Shown: piece after piece, positions 57,318 to 63,823 of the stretch
Numbering within the stretch: position 1 is the stretch's first letter
Layout: every line of letters begins with the position of its first letter
DNA from: a virus
Taxonomy: Duplodnaviria; Heunggongvirae; Uroviricota; Caudoviricetes
IMG/VR virus record: IMGVR_UViG_3300038393_000804
Coordinates: 83,598-147,597 of that record
Reading direction: 5' to 3' (one strand)
DNA length: 64,000 bases
The notes under the pieces: model-generated
Seen by the model: only the letters and a program-made list of their open reading frames with translations
What the model was told of the DNA's origin: nothing
The model's database searches: none
Made by a program: the position numbers and the translations under genes

Positions 57318-58397
57318 ATGTCTAATCAAACAAGAGTAGTGGTTTATGGTTCAAATCGTCTTAACGTGGAGGATTCTTCTTTAACACCTGCAGAAATTCA
57401 AGCGTCAATGTCTGAAATTTTTCCTGAGTTAAAGAATGCAACTTACGAAGTCGTTGGAAACGAAATCCGCTTCACAGTTAAAGCTGGGACGAAGGGTGCT
57501 ACCCGCGTTGTGGTATACGGTTCCAACCGCTTAAACGTTGAGGATGATTCTTTAAGCCCAGAGGAAATCAAAGCTTCTATGTCTGAGATTTTCCCTGAGC
57601 TTAAGAACGCTACTTTCGAAGTCGTAGGCAATGAGATTCGTTTCACTGTCAAAGCAGGCACAAAGGGTTCTGGTTCAGGCCAGACCCGCGTGGTTGTTTA
57701 CGGCTCCAATCGTTTGAATGTTGAAGATTCTTCTTTAACACCAGCGGAGATTCAAGCTTCTATGAGCGAGATTTTCCCAGAGCTTAAAAATGCTACGTAT
57801 GAAGTAGTAGGAAACGAAATCCGATTCACAGTAAAGGCAGGTACAAAAGGTATGACAAGAGTTGTTGTGTATGGTTCAAACCGTCTGAATGTAGAGGACT
57901 CATCTTTGACTCCAGCAGAAATCCAGGCATCTATGTCTGAGATTTTTCCAGAGTTGAAGAATGCTACCTACGAGGTAGTTGGAAATGAAATTCGATTCAC
58001 AGTGAAAGCGGGGACGAAAGGTATGGCACGCGTAGTTGTTTATGGTTCTAATCGTTTAAATGTTGAGGATGATTCCTTAAAACCAGAAGAGATTCAGGCT
58101 TCCATGTCTGAAATCTTTCCTGAGTTGAAAAACGCAACGTTTGAAGTTGTTGGGGATGAAATCCGATTCACTGTTAAGGCTGGTACGAAAGGTGCGAGAG
58201 TCGTTGTATACGGCTCTAACCGCCTTAACGTGGAAGACGACAGCTTAAAGCCTGAAGAAATCCAGGCATCCATGAGCGAAATCTTCCCTGAACTGAAGAA
58301 TGCAACATTCGAAGTGGTTGGCGACGAGATTCGTTTCACCGTGAAAGCTGGTACGAAAGGTGCCCGTTTCACAAAGCTAGTGATTAAATTAGCTTAA
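57318..58397 (+). CDS. poly-ubiquitin-like protein with six tandem 56-61-aa repeats (predicted beta-grasp/Ubl fold, each ending ...KAGTKG) plus an 11-aa C-terminal cap (ARFTKLVIKLA)
   Basis: Repeats read from the translation; CTATGGAGGAATG RBS. Operon partners are a JAMM peptidase and an E1-like enzyme. Confidence 0.7.
   Translation: MSNQTRVVVYGSNRLNVEDSSLTPAEIQASMSEIFPELKNATYEVVGNEIRFTVKAGTKGATRVVVYGSNRLNVEDDSLSPEEIKASMSEIFPELKNATFEVVGNEIRFTVKAGTKGSGSGQTRVVVYGSNRLNVEDSSLTPAEIQASMSEIFPELKNATYEVVGNEIRFTVKAGTKGMTRVVVYGSNRLNVEDSSLTPAEIQASMSEIFPELKNATYEVVGNEIRFTVKAGTKGMARVVVYGSNRLNVEDDSLKPEEIQASMSEIFPELKNATFEVVGDEIRFTVKAGTKGARVVVYGSNRLNVEDDSLKPEEIQASMSEIFPELKNATFEVVGDEIRFTVKAGTKGARFTKLVIKLA
57333..58364 (+). 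repeat. in-frame tandem repeat of 6 units of about 171 nt (one is 183 nt) within the poly-Ubl gene. Strong synonymous divergence between units
   Basis: Protein repeats are nearly identical while codon usage differs between copies. Confidence 0.8.
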
Positions 58398-58418
58398 TCT
58401 GGATACCATGACAAAAGG

Positions 58419-58457
58419 TAGAGGGCTGCTTGCTTATGCACGGCCCTCTATTTTTTT
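58419..58457 (+). terminator. strong intrinsic terminator (GTAGAGGGC...GCCCTCTA plus T7) between the poly-Ubl gene and downstream operon genes
   Basis: Perfect 8-9 bp stem followed by TTTTTTTAT. Confidence 0.7.
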
Positions 58458-58475
58458 ATGAAAGGGAGTGTAGAG

Positions 58476-59009
58476 ATGGTAGCAACGATTGAGTATGTTC
58501 CAAGTAATACAACGCGAGTTCTTCATATTAGAAGAAGCGGCGACAGAATGTATTGCGGTCAAGGCTTCAGCAACCAAACGGTTGATAGAGATTCTTATTC
58601 ACATTATCGAGTTTGTCAAAGATGTGAATCACTAAGGAGGAATGAACAAGTGAATCCAGAAGAAGCAGTACAGGCAAGACCAGCAGTGGAAGTAGAAGTA
58701 GTAAGGAATGAAGAGCCTGCTGACCACTGGGAAGCAAATGGATTCTTACCAGACATCGCAAGGATTTGTAATGACCTTGAGGGTGAACGGGAAAGATTTT
58801 TGCTGACATCTGACCTAAGACAAATCATTGAAACGATAAACAATGCACAAACCGTTCAGGACTTTAGTCGTTACAATGATAGTCAACTTAATGATTTTAA
58901 GCATCAGATACAGCGTCGTTTGCCAGAAGTAGAAAGACAAGTCGTTGGCTTTGTGAATCAAATAACTCGTGCAAGAACAGTAGCAGTTGAATCTATTGAC
59001 TTTATTTAA
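58476..59009 (+). CDS. hypothetical protein, about 177 aa, with an N-terminal zinc-ribbon-like motif (C..C...C..C)
   Basis: GGGAGTGTAGAG RBS before the ATG at 58476. Confidence 0.5.
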   Translation: MVATIEYVPSNTTRVLHIRRSGDRMYCGQGFSNQTVDRDSYSHYRVCQRCESLRRNEQVNPEEAVQARPAVEVEVVRNEEPADHWEANGFLPDIARICNDLEGERERFLLTSDLRQIIETINNAQTVQDFSRYNDSQLNDFKHQIQRRLPEVERQVVGFVNQITRARTVAVESIDFI

Positions 59010-59023
59010 GAGAGGTGAGGGAC

Positions 59024-61489: not shown

Positions 61490-61531
61490 GATAATCAAAC
61501 AAAAAACTAAAACAATTGGAGGAATTTTAAA

Positions 61532-62818
61532 ATGGCAAATTTAGATTTAACCGCAATGTTAGCAGGTCAATTAGTAGGTAAGCACTTCGGTCCACAACCA
61601 GCTGAGGCTTATGATAAACCAACCAATATCGTTGTTGCACGTAACGGGGTCTTCCGAGTGGTGAAGACTCCTGTTGCTTTATTCAAAGTAAAGCTTTCAG
61701 ATATCCCAGCGGACAAAGCAATTCCAGGTCTTGAATCAATGGAAGAAGGTCCAGAGTTATTGATTCCAAAGATTCCTTTGAAGTATCTAATCATGGTATT
61801 AACTTTCTATCGTGATGTTCATACGAAGGATAAGACAGAAGCCAGCGCATTGTTCTTCTGGAATCATGATAATGTGGAGCTGCCACCAAAGTATACAGAT
61901 GGCACAGACATCAAGGGCCTTATTGAAGATGGACAGTTGATTGTGTATTGTCCACAGCAAAAGAACTCTGGTTCATTATCTGAGTTCCATCAGGATGGGA
62001 TGGTGAATTATCTTCGTGAGAATTGCACACCATTATGTGAGACGCACAGCCACCATACGATGGGAGCGTTCTGGTCTGGTACAGATGATGCCAATGAAAA
62101 CATGACTCAGTTCTACGGAGTATGGGGCAACATCGACAAGGATGAACCAAACTTCTTATTCCGTTGGGTATGTGGCGGCACACGCGTAAACATTGACCCA
62201 GCTTTGCTGTTTGATATTCCTCAAGTAGAAATCAAGACACTGGTAACAACTACTGTACCAGTAGAAGGATTCGAACCAGTAGTCGAAGAAAAAGTAGAAC
62301 ACAAATCATTTAAAGGACCATGGCCTCGTGTTGAAGCTCCAGACGATTGGATGGGACAACACTCTCGTTCTTACGGAGGTTACAACTATCACGCAAAAAA
62401 GTCGGGGACAGGGACATCTCCCAGTTACGACAAGTGGGGGGACGAGTGGGACTACTATGGGTATGGGACATCTGGCGGCTATGGCTACCATGGCTCACCA
62501 GGGGGACGAGCGAACAAGGATGATATTGTGGCAGCTAATGCGAAAGCACAAGGCTTAGATTCTAAAAAAAAAGAATCACTAAGCGGGAGCAGCGCGAGCA
62601 AAAGCGCAAGCAGCGAGCCGAGAACAGAAGTCGAAATTTTTCTGGAAAAAAATCTGGGAGACGACACTAAATCAATTGGCGAAGTGGAAGAGACCGTTAA
62701 GGAAATCGTTCAAGAGCTGATTGACCTTGGGTACGATTACGTTGTGAGTGATACAATGACTGAGAACAGCGGTTATGGTCATCTTCATGGCGAACGTAAT
62801 GATTGGTTCTTAGATTAA
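61532..62818 (+). CDS. JAB/MPN (JAMM) metallopeptidase with a roughly 230-aa low-complexity C-terminal extension
   Basis: Perfect JAMM motif E-x(n)-HSHHTMGAFWSGTDD (HxHx7Sx2D); ATTGGAGGAATT RBS. Confidence 0.8.
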   Translation: MANLDLTAMLAGQLVGKHFGPQPAEAYDKPTNIVVARNGVFRVVKTPVALFKVKLSDIPADKAIPGLESMEEGPELLIPKIPLKYLIMVLTFYRDVHTKDKTEASALFFWNHDNVELPPKYTDGTDIKGLIEDGQLIVYCPQQKNSGSLSEFHQDGMVNYLRENCTPLCETHSHHTMGAFWSGTDDANENMTQFYGVWGNIDKDEPNFLFRWVCGGTRVNIDPALLFDIPQVEIKTLVTTTVPVEGFEPVVEEKVEHKSFKGPWPRVEAPDDWMGQHSRSYGGYNYHAKKSGTGTSPSYDKWGDEWDYYGYGTSGGYGYHGSPGGRANKDDIVAANAKAQGLDSKKKESLSGSSASKSASSEPRTEVEIFLEKNLGDDTKSIGEVEETVKEIVQELIDLGYDYVVSDTMTENSGYGHLHGERNDWFLD

Positions 62819-62888
62819 GAAGAGAGGGCAGTCTTTGGCTGCTCTTACTTCAATTAAGGAACAAAACAAAAACTAGGAGGAATTAATC

Positions 62889-63806
62889 ATGGATTTATCA
62901 ATGGCATTAGAACCAACTTATACTTTGGATGTACAAGCAAAGAAGGCAAAGCATTGGATTATTATTGGAGCAGGCGGCAACGGCGGTTATTTTATTCCAC
63001 AATTAATTCGTCAAATCAGTCTTCAAAACAGAATGCTTAAGCTGGAGAACAAGGCATTGCATGCAGTAACTATCATTGATGCAGACAGCGTTGAGGATAA
63101 GAACTTAACACGTCAGAACTTCTTGCCAAGAGATGTTGGTCATAACAAAGCTGAAATCATGGGCATGCGTTATGGCGGTGCGTTCGGTGTTGAGGTAACC
63201 ATCATTGGAGAATATCTGGATGGGCCAAAGATGTTAAAGCAAATTGTTAATCGGCATAACTTGGTTCCTTTCGTAGTCGGTGCGGTGGATAACAATAAGA
63301 CTCGTGCGATTGTGAATGAAGTGTTCAAGGAAACAAAAGGTATGTTCTGGCTGGACATGGGAAATGAAGAGTGGGCTGGTCAAGTTGTTGTTGGTTACAA
63401 TGCTGGACGTGACTTTGTGAAGGGCGAAAAGGTTCCTCACTTATTCAATCTTCCAAGCGTAGCGGATATGTATCCAGAGATTCTAGAGGCAACAGATAAA
63501 CTTCCACATGAAATGAGTTGTGCGGAGCGGGCCGTGAGCAATCCTCAGAACATCTTTACGAACCAAACGGCAGCGAACTTAGCATTAGGTTTTGCCAATA
63601 CAGTGTTATCAGCTGACGCAAGACAGGGTGAAGGATTAAAGACTCATGCCGTTACCTTCAATGCACAAACGATGAGCTTTGATACCAAGCTGAATAAGGC
63701 ACGTTTCTTAAAACCAGAACCAGTTGAAGAACCAAAGGCTGAAGTGGAAGTAAAGAAGACTCCAGCGAAGAAAGTTCCTGCTAAAAAGACGGAGGCTACT
63801 GCGTAA
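62889..63806 (+). CDS. ThiF/MoeB-family E1-like activating enzyme
   Basis: Rossmann motif IIIGAGGNGGYFIPQL and IIDADSVEDKNLTRQ, with a downstream Cys (MSCAER); ACTAGGAGGAATT RBS. Confidence 0.85.
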   Translation: MDLSMALEPTYTLDVQAKKAKHWIIIGAGGNGGYFIPQLIRQISLQNRMLKLENKALHAVTIIDADSVEDKNLTRQNFLPRDVGHNKAEIMGMRYGGAFGVEVTIIGEYLDGPKMLKQIVNRHNLVPFVVGAVDNNKTRAIVNEVFKETKGMFWLDMGNEEWAGQVVVGYNAGRDFVKGEKVPHLFNLPSVADMYPEILEATDKLPHEMSCAERAVSNPQNIFTNQTAANLALGFANTVLSADARQGEGLKTHAVTFNAQTMSFDTKLNKARFLKPEPVEEPKAEVEVKKTPAKKVPAKKTEATA

Positions 63807-63823
63807 GCGGTAGTCTTTTTTTA
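63796..63823 (+). terminator. Rho-independent terminator (CTACTGC-GTAA-GCGGTAG plus TCTTTTTTTAT)
   Basis: GNRA loop followed by a T7 run. Confidence 0.6.

What the first reader, a model, noticed from the sequence alone, without database searches (positions are those of the whole stretch)
57318..63823. Phage-encoded ubiquitin-like conjugation operon: poly-Ubl, JAMM peptidase and E1, plus candidate E2 and adaptor proteins
Six co-directional, tightly spaced genes are bounded by terminators at 57212-57250 and 63796-63823. They encode (1) a six-repeat small-domain protein whose repeats each end in Gly, (2) a Zn-ribbon protein, (3) a 564-aa ER-rich coiled-coil protein, (4) a 252-aa protein with an HNP...C segment reminiscent of E2 enzymes, (5) a JAB/MPN peptidase with an intact E..HxHx7Sx2D motif, and (6) a ThiF/MoeB E1-like enzyme with an intact nucleotide-binding motif. 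Multi-Ubl, E1 and JAB co-occurrence is the known signature of prokaryotic Ubl-conjugation cassettes (Iyer/Burroughs comparative genomics; Bil-type and CBASS-associated systems). Here it sits in a phage with no obvious link to virion genes. This suggests the phage conjugates a Ubl to its own or host proteins, for assembly, counter-defence or host manipulation.
Basis: partly seen in the sequence, partly recalled or inferred. Interest (0 to 1): 0.95.

Follow-up and report, generated by a model that had tools for sequence, protein, structure and literature searches.

The report
Jumbo-phage polyubiquitin-like conjugation operon
A jumbo bacteriophage carries a six-gene operon that encodes a six-unit "polyubiquitin-like" precursor together with the protease, E1 and E2-like enzymes expected to cut it into units and attach them to other proteins; it is a phage-specific variant of a predicted but never tested bacterial cassette (PRTRC), and the same operon sits in a cultivable Bacillus thuringiensis jumbo prophage, so it can be tested directly.

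Summary
Six co-directional genes (57318-63806) lie between two terminators. Family searches assign four of them: 6x Prok_Ub/PRTRC_C (Ubl), Prok-E2_D/PRTRC_B (E2-like, invariant Cys151), Prok-JAB/PRTRC_A (intact JAMM site) and a PRTRC-type ThiF E1 (all adenylation motifs, invariant Cys211). The gene order matches the PRTRC cassette (operon type 6d of Iyer et al. 2006), not Bil or CBASS.

What differs from PRTRC:
- The Ubl is a head-to-tail poly-precursor. Relatives have 2-9 units, and 308 of 309 units end in GTKG.
- Single-unit relatives stop exactly after GTKG, which marks the cleavage site.
- Repeats are 91-100% identical in protein, but synonymous sites are randomised (about 30 of 55 codons; 32 expected by chance).
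- A conserved terminator follows the Ubl gene.
- PRTRC_E, PRTRC_F and ParB are replaced by two clade-specific proteins with no known fold.

The operon is conserved across a Bacillus jumbo-phage clade, including the inducible prophage pBtic235. Published RNA-seq shows all six pBtic235 genes induced 16-40-fold in the lytic cycle.

Conjugation itself, its targets and the beta-grasp fold remain inferred. I rate this a new variant of a known kind, with high interest.

The parts
57211..57249 (+). Upstream intrinsic terminator: a 10-bp stem (ACTAGGTGGG / CCTACCTAGT) followed by CTTTTTT. It separates the cassette from the preceding gene pair.
   Evidence: Read directly from the sequence. Fold dG -19 kcal/mol. 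The scanner missed it because the loop exceeds 8 nt.
57283..57309 (+). A-rich promoter-like element (CCAAAATATATTAATT) followed by the ribosome-binding site GGAGGA (57304-57309), 8 nt before the ATG.
   Evidence: Similar A-rich elements sit 20-35 nt upstream of the poly-Ubl genes in relatives and of several other genes in the window. The motif is loose and its function is inferred.
57318..58397 (+). Poly-Ubl precursor (359 aa). Six head-to-tail 55-aa Prok_Ub/PRTRC_C units at 57333-57497, 57504-57668, 57687-57851, 57858-58022, 58029-58193 and 58197-58361, joined by linkers of 1-6 residues. An 11-aa C-terminal cap, ARFTKLVIKLA, lies at 58362-58394.
   Evidence: Pfam Prok_Ub E = 5.9e-30 with 6 stretches. 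TIGR03738 PRTRC_C scores 54.7 bits against a cutoff of 45.95. Units are 91-100% identical in protein and 70-82% in DNA. In single-unit relatives the stop codon follows GTKG directly.
58417..58457 (+). Internal intrinsic terminator or attenuator directly after the poly-Ubl gene: a GC-rich hairpin followed by seven Ts.
   Evidence: dG -26.4 kcal/mol, z = -5.09, and none of 200 shuffles folds as well. A hairpin at the same position occurs in 5 of 6 relatives although the sequences differ.
58458..59009 (+). ORF2, a clade-specific small protein (probable start 58476, 177 aa). It has a helical core and an invariant C-terminal D(F/Y)I-COOH. The N-terminal Cys-containing segment is unique to this phage.
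   Evidence: No family hit in Pfam, PHROGs, NCBIfam or PADLOC. The C-terminal motif is present in 7 of 7 clade members and in pBtic235. The clade HMM detects the pBtic235 orthologue.
59015..60718 (+). ORF3, a clade-specific 564/567-aa protein (probable start 59024). It has an N-terminal domain with invariant C62, R65, R74 and H80-x-K-A-x-K, a conserved beta-rich module (~250-334), an ER-rich coiled coil of variable length (337-445), and a small C-terminal domain ending in PF. It sits where PRTRC_F sits in classical cassettes.
60731..61489 (+). ORF4, an E2-like protein of the Prok-E2_D / PRTRC_B family. It has an invariant C151-W-G, H120, and a near-invariant H207 in a downstream helix.
61532..62818 (+). 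ORF5, a JAB/JAMM metallopeptidase (PRTRC_A type). It has an N-terminal alpha+beta domain, a catalytic domain (E103, H172-x-H174, S182, D185), a G/Y/S-rich low-complexity stretch (~277-325) and a small C-terminal helical region.
   Evidence: Pfam Prok-JAB scores 25.3 bits against a cutoff of 25. TIGR03735 E = 8e-10, below its cutoff. The catalytic residues are invariant, including in phage Dina's PRTRC_A.
62889..63806 (+). ORF6, a ThiF/MoeB-type E1 (PRTRC_ThiF type). It has GAGGNGG, D66, N72-x2-R75-Q76, K87 and D134, an invariant S210-C211, and a Lys/Ala/Pro-rich C-terminal tail.
   Evidence: Pfam ThiF E = 2.4e-11. TIGR03736 scores 126.8 bits against a cutoff of 144.75 and is by far the best NCBIfam hit. 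Invariant residues are listed in alignment A3.
63791..63823 (+). Downstream intrinsic terminator (12-bp stem plus T-run). It overlaps the E1 stop codon.
   Evidence: Terminator scan.

Best explanation
The region is a jumbo-phage variant of the PRTRC / Iyer type-6d ubiquitin-like conjugation cassette, built around a polyubiquitin-like precursor gene.

Proposed mechanism:
1. The operon is transcribed in the lytic cycle. This is shown for the pBtic235 orthologues. A terminator right after ORF1 would make the poly-Ubl message more abundant than the enzyme messages (inferred).
2. The 359-aa precursor is cut after each ...AGTKG by the JAMM peptidase ORF5. This removes the 11-aa cap and releases six Ubl monomers of about 6 kDa with a free C-terminal Gly. 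The cleavage site is inferred from relatives whose gene ends exactly at GTKG.
3. The ThiF-type E1 (ORF6) adenylates that Gly and may carry it on Cys211 (inferred from conserved motifs).
4. The Ubl passes to Cys151 of the E2-like ORF4 (inferred).
5. It is then attached to lysines of abundant phage or host proteins. ORF3 and ORF2 would act as clade-specific specificity, scaffold or E3-like factors. ORF3 has an invariant Cys62/His80, a dimerising coiled coil and a beta-rich module. ORF2 has a D(F/Y)I-COOH tail. This step is speculative.
6. The JAMM enzyme could also reverse the modification.

A poly-precursor implies that the Ubl is consumed stoichiometrically, not recycled as a cofactor carrier.
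For: Family assignment of four genes.

Synteny: the order matches the annotated PRTRC of Ralstonia phage Dina (E-C-F-B-A-ThiF) and about 60 further viral loci.

Catalytic residues are invariant in the JAB, the E1 and the E2-like protein.

The C-terminal G(T/R/V)KG is conserved family-wide. In about 35 loci the stop codon follows it directly, in about 25 a 60-70 aa extension follows, and in the jumbo clade the next unit follows.

Every unit is under very strong purifying selection. Within each genome, repeat pairs differ at about 30 of 55 codons synonymously (32.3 expected for random back-translation) and at only about 3 non-synonymously. This holds in 7 genomes and in pBtic235.

Vertical retention: the cassette persists across a clade with TerL only 58-64% identical.

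Expression: in pBtic235 all six orthologues are induced by mitomycin C, with log2FC falling along the operon: +5.32 (poly-Ubl), +4.92, +4.72, +4.49, about +4.1, +4.02 (E1). Source: PMC9700832 supplementary file 3.

The hairpin after the Ubl gene is conserved in position.
Against: No PRTRC-type system has been shown biochemically to conjugate anything.

ORF5 and ORF6 fall below the NCBIfam equivalog cutoffs for PRTRC_A and PRTRC_ThiF.

The beta-grasp fold of the units rests on family membership only. A profile of the units finds no solved beta-grasp protein and does not align to ubiquitin.

No target and no E3 has been identified. ORF2 and ORF3 have no recognisable fold or family.

The RNA-seq values are fold-changes, not absolute levels, so the terminator-attenuation idea is only weakly supported.
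Confidence: 0.7

Rival explanations
1. Sulfur-carrier pathway. The Ubl units would act like ThiS or MoaD: the E1 adenylates the C-terminal Gly, it is converted to a thiocarboxylate, and the sulfur goes to a cofactor or a nucleoside (for example tRNA or DNA thiolation). There would be no protein conjugation.
For: ORF6 is a ThiF/MoeB-family enzyme whose secondary hits are ThiF and MoeB models. The units end in Gly. The phage carries tRNA-related enzymes nearby: a CCA-adding enzyme and an RlaP-type nucleotidyltransferase.
Against: Each cassette keeps an E2-like protein with an invariant Cys, which sulfur-carrier pathways do not need. The units end in KG, not GG. No rhodanese, cysteine desulfurase or ThiG/MoaE-type partner appears among the six genes or the tested neighbours. 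A carrier is recycled, so a 3-9-unit precursor under per-unit selection is hard to explain.
Confidence: 0.07
2. ORF1 is an uncleaved tandem-domain structural or scaffold protein, like the repeated small domains of many phage virion proteins. The adjacent E1, E2-like and JAB genes would act on something else, or only on its last unit.
For: The WH1 orthologue gp211 is annotated 'virion structural protein', as is the upstream gp208; the basis of that annotation is unknown. [quoted passage not shown]
Against: The Arash run detected 116 proteins, including ribonucleotide reductases, so it shows expression and not packaging. Single-unit relatives encode the same domain ending exactly at GTKG-stop. 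The GTKG end is the most conserved part of every unit, in 308 of 309 cases, which fits an enzyme-recognised terminus better than a linker. All poly-proteins carry a short cap, as processed polyubiquitins do.
Confidence: 0.08
3. The cassette is mainly a counter-defence device and not a general modifier. The phage Ubl and enzymes would neutralise host Ubl-based immunity (Bil, CBASS Cap2/Cap3) or tag and inactivate host defence proteins. This is a sub-hypothesis about purpose and is compatible with the conjugation mechanism.
For: The neighbourhood holds accessory, counter-defence-type genes and no virion genes: a PRPP-synthetase-like gene plus NAMPT (NAD+ salvage), an RlaP nucleotidyltransferase and a CCA-adding enzyme. 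In WH1 a NADAR-family gene follows the E1. Related single-Ubl cassettes are common on plasmids (551 records) and small temperate phages.
Against: This is guilt by association only. There is no homology to known anti-defence proteins, and PADLOC gave only weak E1-domain hits. Strict vertical retention across the whole clade looks more like a core function than an exchangeable anti-defence gene.
Confidence: 0.2

Closest known systems
PRTRC system (TIGR03734-03742), equivalent to operon type 6d of Iyer, Burroughs & Aravind 2006 (PMC1779556)
   Same: It shares the Prok_Ub/PRTRC_C Ubl ending in G-x-K-G, the Prok-E2_D/PRTRC_B E2-like protein that lacks the classical HPN histidine but has a conserved His downstream of the Cys, a JAB with an extra N-terminal domain, a ThiF-type E1, and the gene order Ubl ... 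E2-JAB-E1. It is likewise carried on mobile elements.
   Different: The Ubl is a 2-9-unit poly-precursor, not a single unit. PRTRC_E and PRTRC_F are replaced by unrelated clade-specific proteins. No ParB-like gene is found in the window. A terminator follows the Ubl gene. The host element is a jumbo phage. ORF5 and ORF6 score below the equivalog cutoffs.
Eukaryotic polyubiquitin genes (UBI4, UBB, UBC; from my own knowledge)
   Same: Head-to-tail repeats of one modifier, each unit ending in the glycine that is activated. A short C-terminal cap must be removed; in 16 of 63 phage proteins it is a single residue. Protein identity between units is near-perfect while silent sites differ.
   Different: There is no detectable sequence similarity to ubiquitin. 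Units are 55 aa and end in TKG, not RGG. Linkers of 1-6 residues separate the units. The expected processing enzyme is a JAMM metalloprotease encoded in the same operon. The architecture therefore arose independently.
Bil (BilABCD) anti-phage system (preprint PMC10557695; Hor et al. 2024, from my own knowledge)
   Same: Four-part logic of Ubl, E1, E2 and a JAB-type deubiquitinase encoded together. Conjugation of a Ubl to proteins in the phage-host conflict has been shown for Bil.
   Different: Bil is a bacterial defence system that tags phage proteins; here the phage carries the system. The protein families differ: no PADLOC Bil model matched. Bil's Ubl is not a poly-precursor.
CBASS type II Cap2/Cap3 (PMC10097602)
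   Same: An E1/E2 adenylation-thioester chemistry plus a JAB antagonist. ORF6 gives weak hits to PADLOC 'E1-E2' (Cap2) models (E = 1e-6).
   Different: In Cap2 the E1 and E2 are fused, and the thing conjugated is the cyclase's own C-terminus, so there is no free Ubl. The window has no CD-NTase or effector.
Lambda/T1 tail-assembly TAPI (Ubl) with TAPK (JAB + NlpC/P60) (PMC1779556)
   Same: A phage-encoded beta-grasp Ubl with a C-terminal Gly next to a JAB peptidase predicted to process it.
   Different: That module has no E1 or E2 and lies within the tail genes. The window's cassette has the complete activating and conjugating set and is not in a virion module.

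Membership tests
PRTRC system / Iyer type 6d | Small Ubl of the Prok_Ub / PRTRC_C family with a conserved C-terminal Gly | tested here: met
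   Pfam PF14454 scores 103 bits with 6 stretches. TIGR03738 scores 54.7 bits, above its 45.95 cutoff. The GTKG end is shared with about 60 classical loci.
PRTRC system / Iyer type 6d | E2-like protein of the PRTRC_B / Prok-E2_D family with a conserved Cys and a downstream conserved His | tested here: met
   The window protein itself scores nothing. At family level, 12 of 19 members hit Prok-E2_D (six above the gathering score, covering the Cys) and 8 of 19 hit TIGR03737. C151 is invariant and H207 near-invariant. The iterated HMM finds phage Dina's annotated PRTRC_B.
PRTRC system / Iyer type 6d | JAB peptidase of the PRTRC_A type with an N-terminal extra domain | tested here: inconclusive
   Prok-JAB scores 25.3 bits against a cutoff of 25 (met). 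TIGR03735 scores 38.5 bits against a cutoff of 101.8 (not met as an equivalog). The JAMM residues are invariant, and an N-terminal ~90-aa domain with invariant W110 is present.
PRTRC system / Iyer type 6d | PRTRC-type ThiF-family E1 | tested here: inconclusive
   TIGR03736 is the best hit by far (126.8 bits, E = 8e-37) but falls below its 144.75 cutoff. Pfam ThiF is passed. ORF6 aligns over its full length with phage Dina's PRTRC ThiF, including the S-C motif.
PRTRC system / Iyer type 6d | Gene order Ubl - (F) - E2 - JAB - E1 | tested here: met
   Phage Dina has E-C-F-B-A-ThiF. The window has C-ORF2-ORF3-B-A-ThiF. The same skeleton occurs in most of 84 loci.
PRTRC system / Iyer type 6d | PRTRC_E and PRTRC_F accessory proteins (PRTRC_D was covered only by the NCBIfam scan) | tested here: not met
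   ORF2 and ORF3 and four orthologues of each gave no NCBIfam hit. hhalign against E- and F-position genes from classical loci gave probability <= 0.8%. There is only a loose parallel between C-terminal tails: D(F/Y)I versus D(L/M)(P)(I/L/F).
PRTRC system / Iyer type 6d | Associated ParB-related protein (the 'PR' of PRTRC) | tested here: not met
   No ParB-type hit among the six genes or the tested upstream genes. The window ends 194 nt after the E1, so the downstream side could not be examined. None is annotated next to the WH1, KLEB27-3 or pBtic235 cassettes.
Ubiquitin-like beta-grasp fold | Units adopt a beta-grasp fold | not tested
   Both structure-prediction jobs went to ORF4 and ORF3. 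The fold rests on Prok_Ub membership and on the secondary-structure prediction in PMC1779556. A unit profile finds no solved beta-grasp protein by sequence.
E2 / UBC superfamily fold | UBC-like alpha/beta fold around the catalytic Cys | tested here: inconclusive
Polyubiquitin-type precursor architecture | Head-to-tail identical modifier units, each ending in the activatable Gly, plus a removable C-terminal cap | tested here: met
   Six units in the window and 2-9 in relatives. Cleavage itself has not been shown.
Bil (BilABCD) defence system | Proteins match the Bil family models | tested here: not met
   The PADLOC scan returned no Bil model for any of the six proteins.
CBASS type II (Cap2/Cap3) | E1-E2 fusion protein with a CD-NTase and an effector | tested here: not met
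   Only the E1 domain gives weak hits to the E1-E2 models (E = 1e-6 to 6e-3). E1 and E2 are separate genes, and no CD-NTase is present.
ThiS/MoaD sulfur-carrier systems | C-terminal GG carrier with a sulfurtransferase and a synthase partner | tested here: not met
   Units end in KG. No such partners occur in the operon or the tested neighbours.

The most novel reading that the evidence does not exclude
Jumbo phages of Bacillus-type hosts run their own complete ubiquitin-like conjugation pathway. It would be fed by a true polyubiquitin-style precursor that arose independently of eukaryotes, and steered by a previously unseen E3-like or adaptor protein (ORF3, with an invariant Cys/His pair, a coiled coil and a new beta-rich module) together with a small partner (ORF2). 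The pathway would mass-tag phage or host proteins during lytic growth. If so, this would be the first complete Ubl-conjugation system of a bacterial virus and the first function assigned to any PRTRC-type cassette.
Probability: 0.5. Interest if true: 0.88.

Novelty: new variant of a known kind. Interest (0 to 1): 0.78.

Why it matters
Ubiquitin-like conjugation in bacteria has only recently been shown experimentally, for CBASS Cap2 and Bil, and always as a host defence. The PRTRC/6d cassette was predicted in 2006 and occurs on hundreds of plasmids (551 records) and many phages (76 viral contigs). I found no experimental function for it.

This jumbo-phage variant adds the strongest indirect argument so far that the Ubl is a consumed modifier. 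It is made as a 2-9-unit precursor, every unit is held under extreme purifying selection, and every unit ends in the same GTKG that single-unit relatives encode as their natural C-terminus.

It is also a clean case of convergent evolution of the polyubiquitin gene design in a virus of bacteria.

The question is now directly testable. The same six genes sit in pBtic235, an inducible, plaque-forming jumbo prophage of the biopesticide strain B. thuringiensis israelensis. They are switched on in the lytic cycle there and are all annotated 'hypothetical' except the ThiF.

Tried and rejected
- Nucleotide search against 50,697 phage records found no match. Only protein-level relatives exist.
- PHROGs and PADLOC gave nothing useful for five of the six proteins.
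- A single-protein scan of IMG/VR with the E1 found nothing. The alignment-based scan worked.
- Are ORF3 and ORF2 divergent PRTRC_F and PRTRC_E? NCBIfam on five orthologues of each, BLAST against phage Dina's proteins and hhalign against position-matched genes from classical loci were all negative, so I rejected this idea.
- Sequence searches of ORF1, ORF5 and ORF6 against PDB chains found no relatives. The Ubl-unit profile against PDB and against ubiquitin was also negative.
- Pattern scans of 185,579 species-representative genomes with the ORF3 and E2 families found nothing. This is a false negative for 'absent from bacteria', because the cassette is on Bacillus phage-plasmids.
- 'Structural protein' labels: the Arash annotation comes from an over-inclusive LC-MS list. 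I found no paper for WH1 or KLEB27-3. I therefore rejected these labels as evidence that the components are packaged in virions.
- The 526-kb JGI contig that carries an identical ORF3 could not be retrieved.

Full report

Yes. Six + strand ORFs lie at 57318-58397, 58458-59009, 59015-60718, 60731-61489, 61532-62818 and 62889-63806. The gaps between ORF2, ORF3, ORF4, ORF5 and ORF6 are 5-70 nt.

The downstream terminator (63791-63818 plus a T-run) was found by the scan. The upstream one (57211-57242 plus CTTTTTT) is visible in the sequence and folds at -19 kcal/mol; the scanner missed it only because the loop is long.

The window is a jumbo-phage fragment. It encodes a large terminase, NAMPT, a CCA-adding enzyme and a sigma factor. 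Its terminase is 58-64% identical to those of Bacillus jumbo phages KLEB27-3, Edson and WH1. No nucleotide-level relative exists in GenBank phages.

**2. What the genes are**

- **ORF1.** It matches Pfam Prok_Ub six times (E = 6e-30) and NCBIfam PRTRC_C above its curated cutoff.
- **ORF5.** It matches Prok-JAB at the gathering score and PRTRC_A below its cutoff. E103, H172-x-H174, S182 and D185 are invariant, even against the annotated PRTRC_A of Ralstonia phage Dina.
- **ORF6.** It matches ThiF. By far its best NCBIfam hit is PRTRC_ThiF, at 126.8 bits against a cutoff of 144.75. GxGGNG, D66, N72/R75/Q76, K87, D134 and an S210-C211 pair are invariant.
- **ORF4.** It scores on no model itself. 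All 29 of its homologues are metagenomic. Among 19 family members (16 of these homologues plus ORF4 and the WH1 and KLEB27-3 orthologues), 12 hit Pfam Prok-E2_D. Six pass the gathering score over residues ~60-198, which include the invariant C151-W-G. Eight of 19 hit PRTRC_B. Phage Dina's annotated PRTRC_B scores 155 bits on Prok-E2_D, so the two names describe one family.
  - The family instead has H120 and a near-invariant H207 in a downstream helix. This matches the description of type-6d E2-like proteins in Iyer et al. 2006 (PMC1779556).

**3. Which system it is**

Ralstonia phage Dina carries a fully annotated PRTRC set in the order E-C-F-B-A-ThiF. The window's order is C-ORF2-ORF3-B-A-ThiF.

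A scan of IMG/VR found 76 viral contigs with a PRTRC-type ThiF. HMMs built from my own alignments showed the skeleton Ubl ... E2-(JAB)-E1 in most of them.

The cassette is therefore of the PRTRC / Iyer type-6d kind, not Bil or CBASS. PADLOC gave only weak E1-domain hits.

It is not a canonical member, for three reasons:
- ORF2 and ORF3 show no similarity to PRTRC_E, PRTRC_F or PRTRC_D by NCBIfam, or to PRTRC_E/F by BLAST or profile-profile comparison.
- No ParB-like gene is present in the window.
- ORF5 and ORF6 fall below the equivalog cutoffs.

**4. What is special: a polyubiquitin-like precursor**

In all of the roughly 60 small viral contigs the Ubl is a single unit. Two to six units, together with ORF2 and ORF3 homologues, occur only in the jumbo-phage clade: the window, WH1 (5 units), KLEB27-3 (4), a 246.7-kb ENA contig (6), two IMG/VR jumbo contigs (2 each), and one contig with two poly-Ubl genes.

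A database search found 63 cluster representatives. One carries a single detected unit and the other 62 carry 3-9 units (26 proteins with 4, 16 with 5, 11 with 6, five with 7, and one each with 8 and 9). Of 309 units, 308 end in exactly GTKG. Every protein carries a cap after the last unit, and in 16 proteins the cap is a single residue.

Across the wider family the domain ends in G(T/R/V)KG. In about 35 loci the stop codon follows directly. In about 25 loci a 60-70 aa extension follows. The free ...KG-COOH is therefore the native mature end, and the precursor must be cut after each GTKG to reproduce it. This is the best available evidence for the processing site, but it remains an inference.

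**5. Repeat evolution**

The six window units are 91-100% identical in protein and only 70-82% identical in DNA. Each pair differs at 24-36 codons synonymously and at 0-5 non-synonymously.

The mean is 30.4 synonymous differences. Two independent back-translations under the phage's own codon usage would give 32.3. The same pattern holds in six other genomes and in pBtic235.

Between genomes the units do differ: about 9 of 55 residues against the 246.7-kb relative and about 27 against WH1. Within a genome they stay alike, and the linker pattern is conserved between the window and its closest relative.

Every unit is thus under very strong purifying selection, and the units co-evolve at the protein level while their silent sites are fully scrambled. 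Two explanations fit: long divergence under strong constraint with occasional homogenisation, or selection against recombination-prone DNA repeats. I could not separate them.

**6. Operon anatomy**

A strong hairpin plus seven Ts lies directly after ORF1 (58417-58457; -26.4 kcal/mol, z = -5.1). A hairpin sits at the same place in 5 of 6 relatives although the sequences differ. I read it as an attenuator that lets the Ubl message exceed the enzyme messages.

**7. The two unknown proteins**

*ORF2.* The ORF2 family shares only a short helical core and an invariant C-terminal D(F/Y)I-COOH. The motif is present in 7 of 7 clade members and also in pBtic235. The window-specific N-terminal Cys segment is not conserved, so 'Zn-ribbon protein' is not a feature of the system.

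*ORF3.* It has four parts:
- an N-terminal domain with invariant C62, R65, R74 and H80-x-K-A-x-K;
- a conserved beta-rich module (~250-334) that also occurs as stand-alone proteins of about 90-140 aa;
- an ER-rich coiled coil of variable length;
- a small C-terminal domain.

It has no Pfam family and no structural neighbour. Only 37 relatives exist among 1.84 billion representative proteins. An E3-like or adaptor role is a guess based on its position in the operon and its invariant Cys/His.

**8. A cultivable system and expression data**

The E1 finds 551 plasmid records. The best are ~205-240 kb Bacillus elements.

pBTHD789-2, which I take to be a copy of pBtic235 (same 235,425-bp size and identical E1 and TerL matches to the pBtic235 record NZ_CP051859.1), has the same six genes. 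Its poly-Ubl has 4 units, each ending in AGTKG, plus a cap. Its ORF2-like protein ends in DVDYI. Its E2 has a GICWG motif. Its JAB is 52% identical to the window's and its E1 44%. All six are recognised by my clade HMMs. Its terminase is 59% identical to the window's.

pBtic235 is an inducible, plaque-forming circular jumbo prophage (PMC9700832). That paper does not mention ThiF or ubiquitin. Its supplementary RNA-seq table shows all six genes induced 30 min after mitomycin C. The log2 fold-change falls along the operon: +5.32, +4.92, +4.72, +4.49, about +4.1, +4.02. The orthologous cassette is therefore expressed as a unit in the lytic cycle.

**9. Purpose**

The purpose is unknown. The neighbourhood is accessory and not virion-related: NAD+ salvage genes, an RlaP nucleotidyltransferase and a CCA-adding enzyme. 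That leans slightly toward host manipulation or counter-defence.

The 'virion structural' label on WH1 gp211 has an unknown basis. The Arash 'structural' labels come from an over-inclusive LC-MS list.

Strict vertical retention and a stoichiometric precursor would also suit modification of an abundant phage protein.

**10. Limits**

- The beta-grasp fold of the units was not tested by structure here.
- The UBC fold of ORF4 is unconfirmed.
- No step of the cascade has been shown for any PRTRC-type system.
- The negative genome-collection scans do not mean the cassette is absent from bacteria.

**Verdict**

This is a new variant of a known but uncharacterised kind. Its distinctive features are the polyubiquitin-like precursor and two novel partner proteins, and a tractable experimental system is available.

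Noticed in passing
window 55002-56789 (+) and 56789-56968 (+): The 595-aa protein just upstream has an acidic D/E run. Its C-terminal half is made of Met/Leu/Gly-rich repeats of the type 'FNP(x)(L/M)LLALGDG'. It is homologous to WH1 gp208 (annotated 'virion structural protein') and gp209. The 59-aa gene after it matches WH1 gp210. Both are syntenic with the cassette in relatives. No family hit was found.
   Followed up: partly
window 47485-51264 (+) and 33944-35197 (+): A cluster of accessory genes: an RlaP-type nucleotidyltransferase (47485-48225), a PRPP-synthetase-like gene (48449-49327), NAMPT (49735-51264) and, further upstream, a CCA-adding enzyme. This suggests an NAD+ salvage and RNA-repair region of the kind linked to counter-defence.
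   Followed up: partly
window 2686-5670 (-): The large terminase is 993 aa, but only residues ~456-967 match terminase models. RefSeq annotates the orthologous ORFs of the Bacillus phage-plasmids as 'LAGLIDADG family homing endonuclease'. The gene may carry an intein or a fused homing endonuclease.
   Followed up: no
window 25482-26672 (-) and 25507-26727 (+): Two long ORFs (396 and 406 aa) overlap almost completely on opposite strands. At most one is likely to be real.
   Followed up: no
window ~10000-12000: Gene orientation and GC skew both switch here: minus-strand genes with negative skew before ~10 kb, plus-strand genes with positive skew after. GC content dips to 37%. This could be a divergent transcription or replication boundary.
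   Followed up: no
window 62360-62510 (ORF5 residues ~277-325) and 63726-63803 (ORF6 residues ~280-305): The JAB carries a Gly/Tyr/Ser-rich low-complexity stretch. The E1 ends in a Lys/Ala/Pro-rich tail (KKTPAKKVPAKK), which is also present in the closest relative but not in WH1 or KLEB27-3.
   Followed up: no
L008 (Salmonella phage Arash), L017, L019-L021, L025-L027, L055; L007 (Acinetobacter phage ME3): About ten phage loci, several of them 170-190 kb, have E2-like, JAB and E1 genes in a row but no Ubl that my HMM detects. ME3 has a single Ubl, two JAB-like genes and a ThiF, but no E2-like hit. These may be further variants of the cassette, or their Ubl may be too divergent to detect.
   Followed up: partly
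L005 152-2126; L003 12121-12537: One relative has two tandem poly-Ubl genes (4 and 3 units) followed by a DUF5065 gene. Another has an extra 138-aa gene inserted between the JAB and the E1.
   Followed up: no
window, upstream of the genes starting at 13207, 14335, 25507, 38907 and 57318: An A/T-rich element resembling AAAATAnnTTAA recurs 10-25 nt before the ribosome-binding site of several genes. A-rich elements also precede the poly-Ubl genes of relatives. This may be a phage-specific promoter; its temporal class is unknown.
   Followed up: partly
P0030 (JGI contig of 526,029 bp): A protein 100% identical to ORF3 lies on a 526-kb metagenomic contig, about twice the size of the related jumbo phages. 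It could be a much larger phage or a concatemeric assembly. Its DNA could not be retrieved.
   Followed up: partly
NC_018509.1 and the other top Bacillus/Cytobacillus phage-plasmid records: The ten best plasmid records listed, including all the pBtic235-type records, show two separate places matching the E1. A second ThiF-like gene may exist elsewhere in these elements.
   Followed up: no
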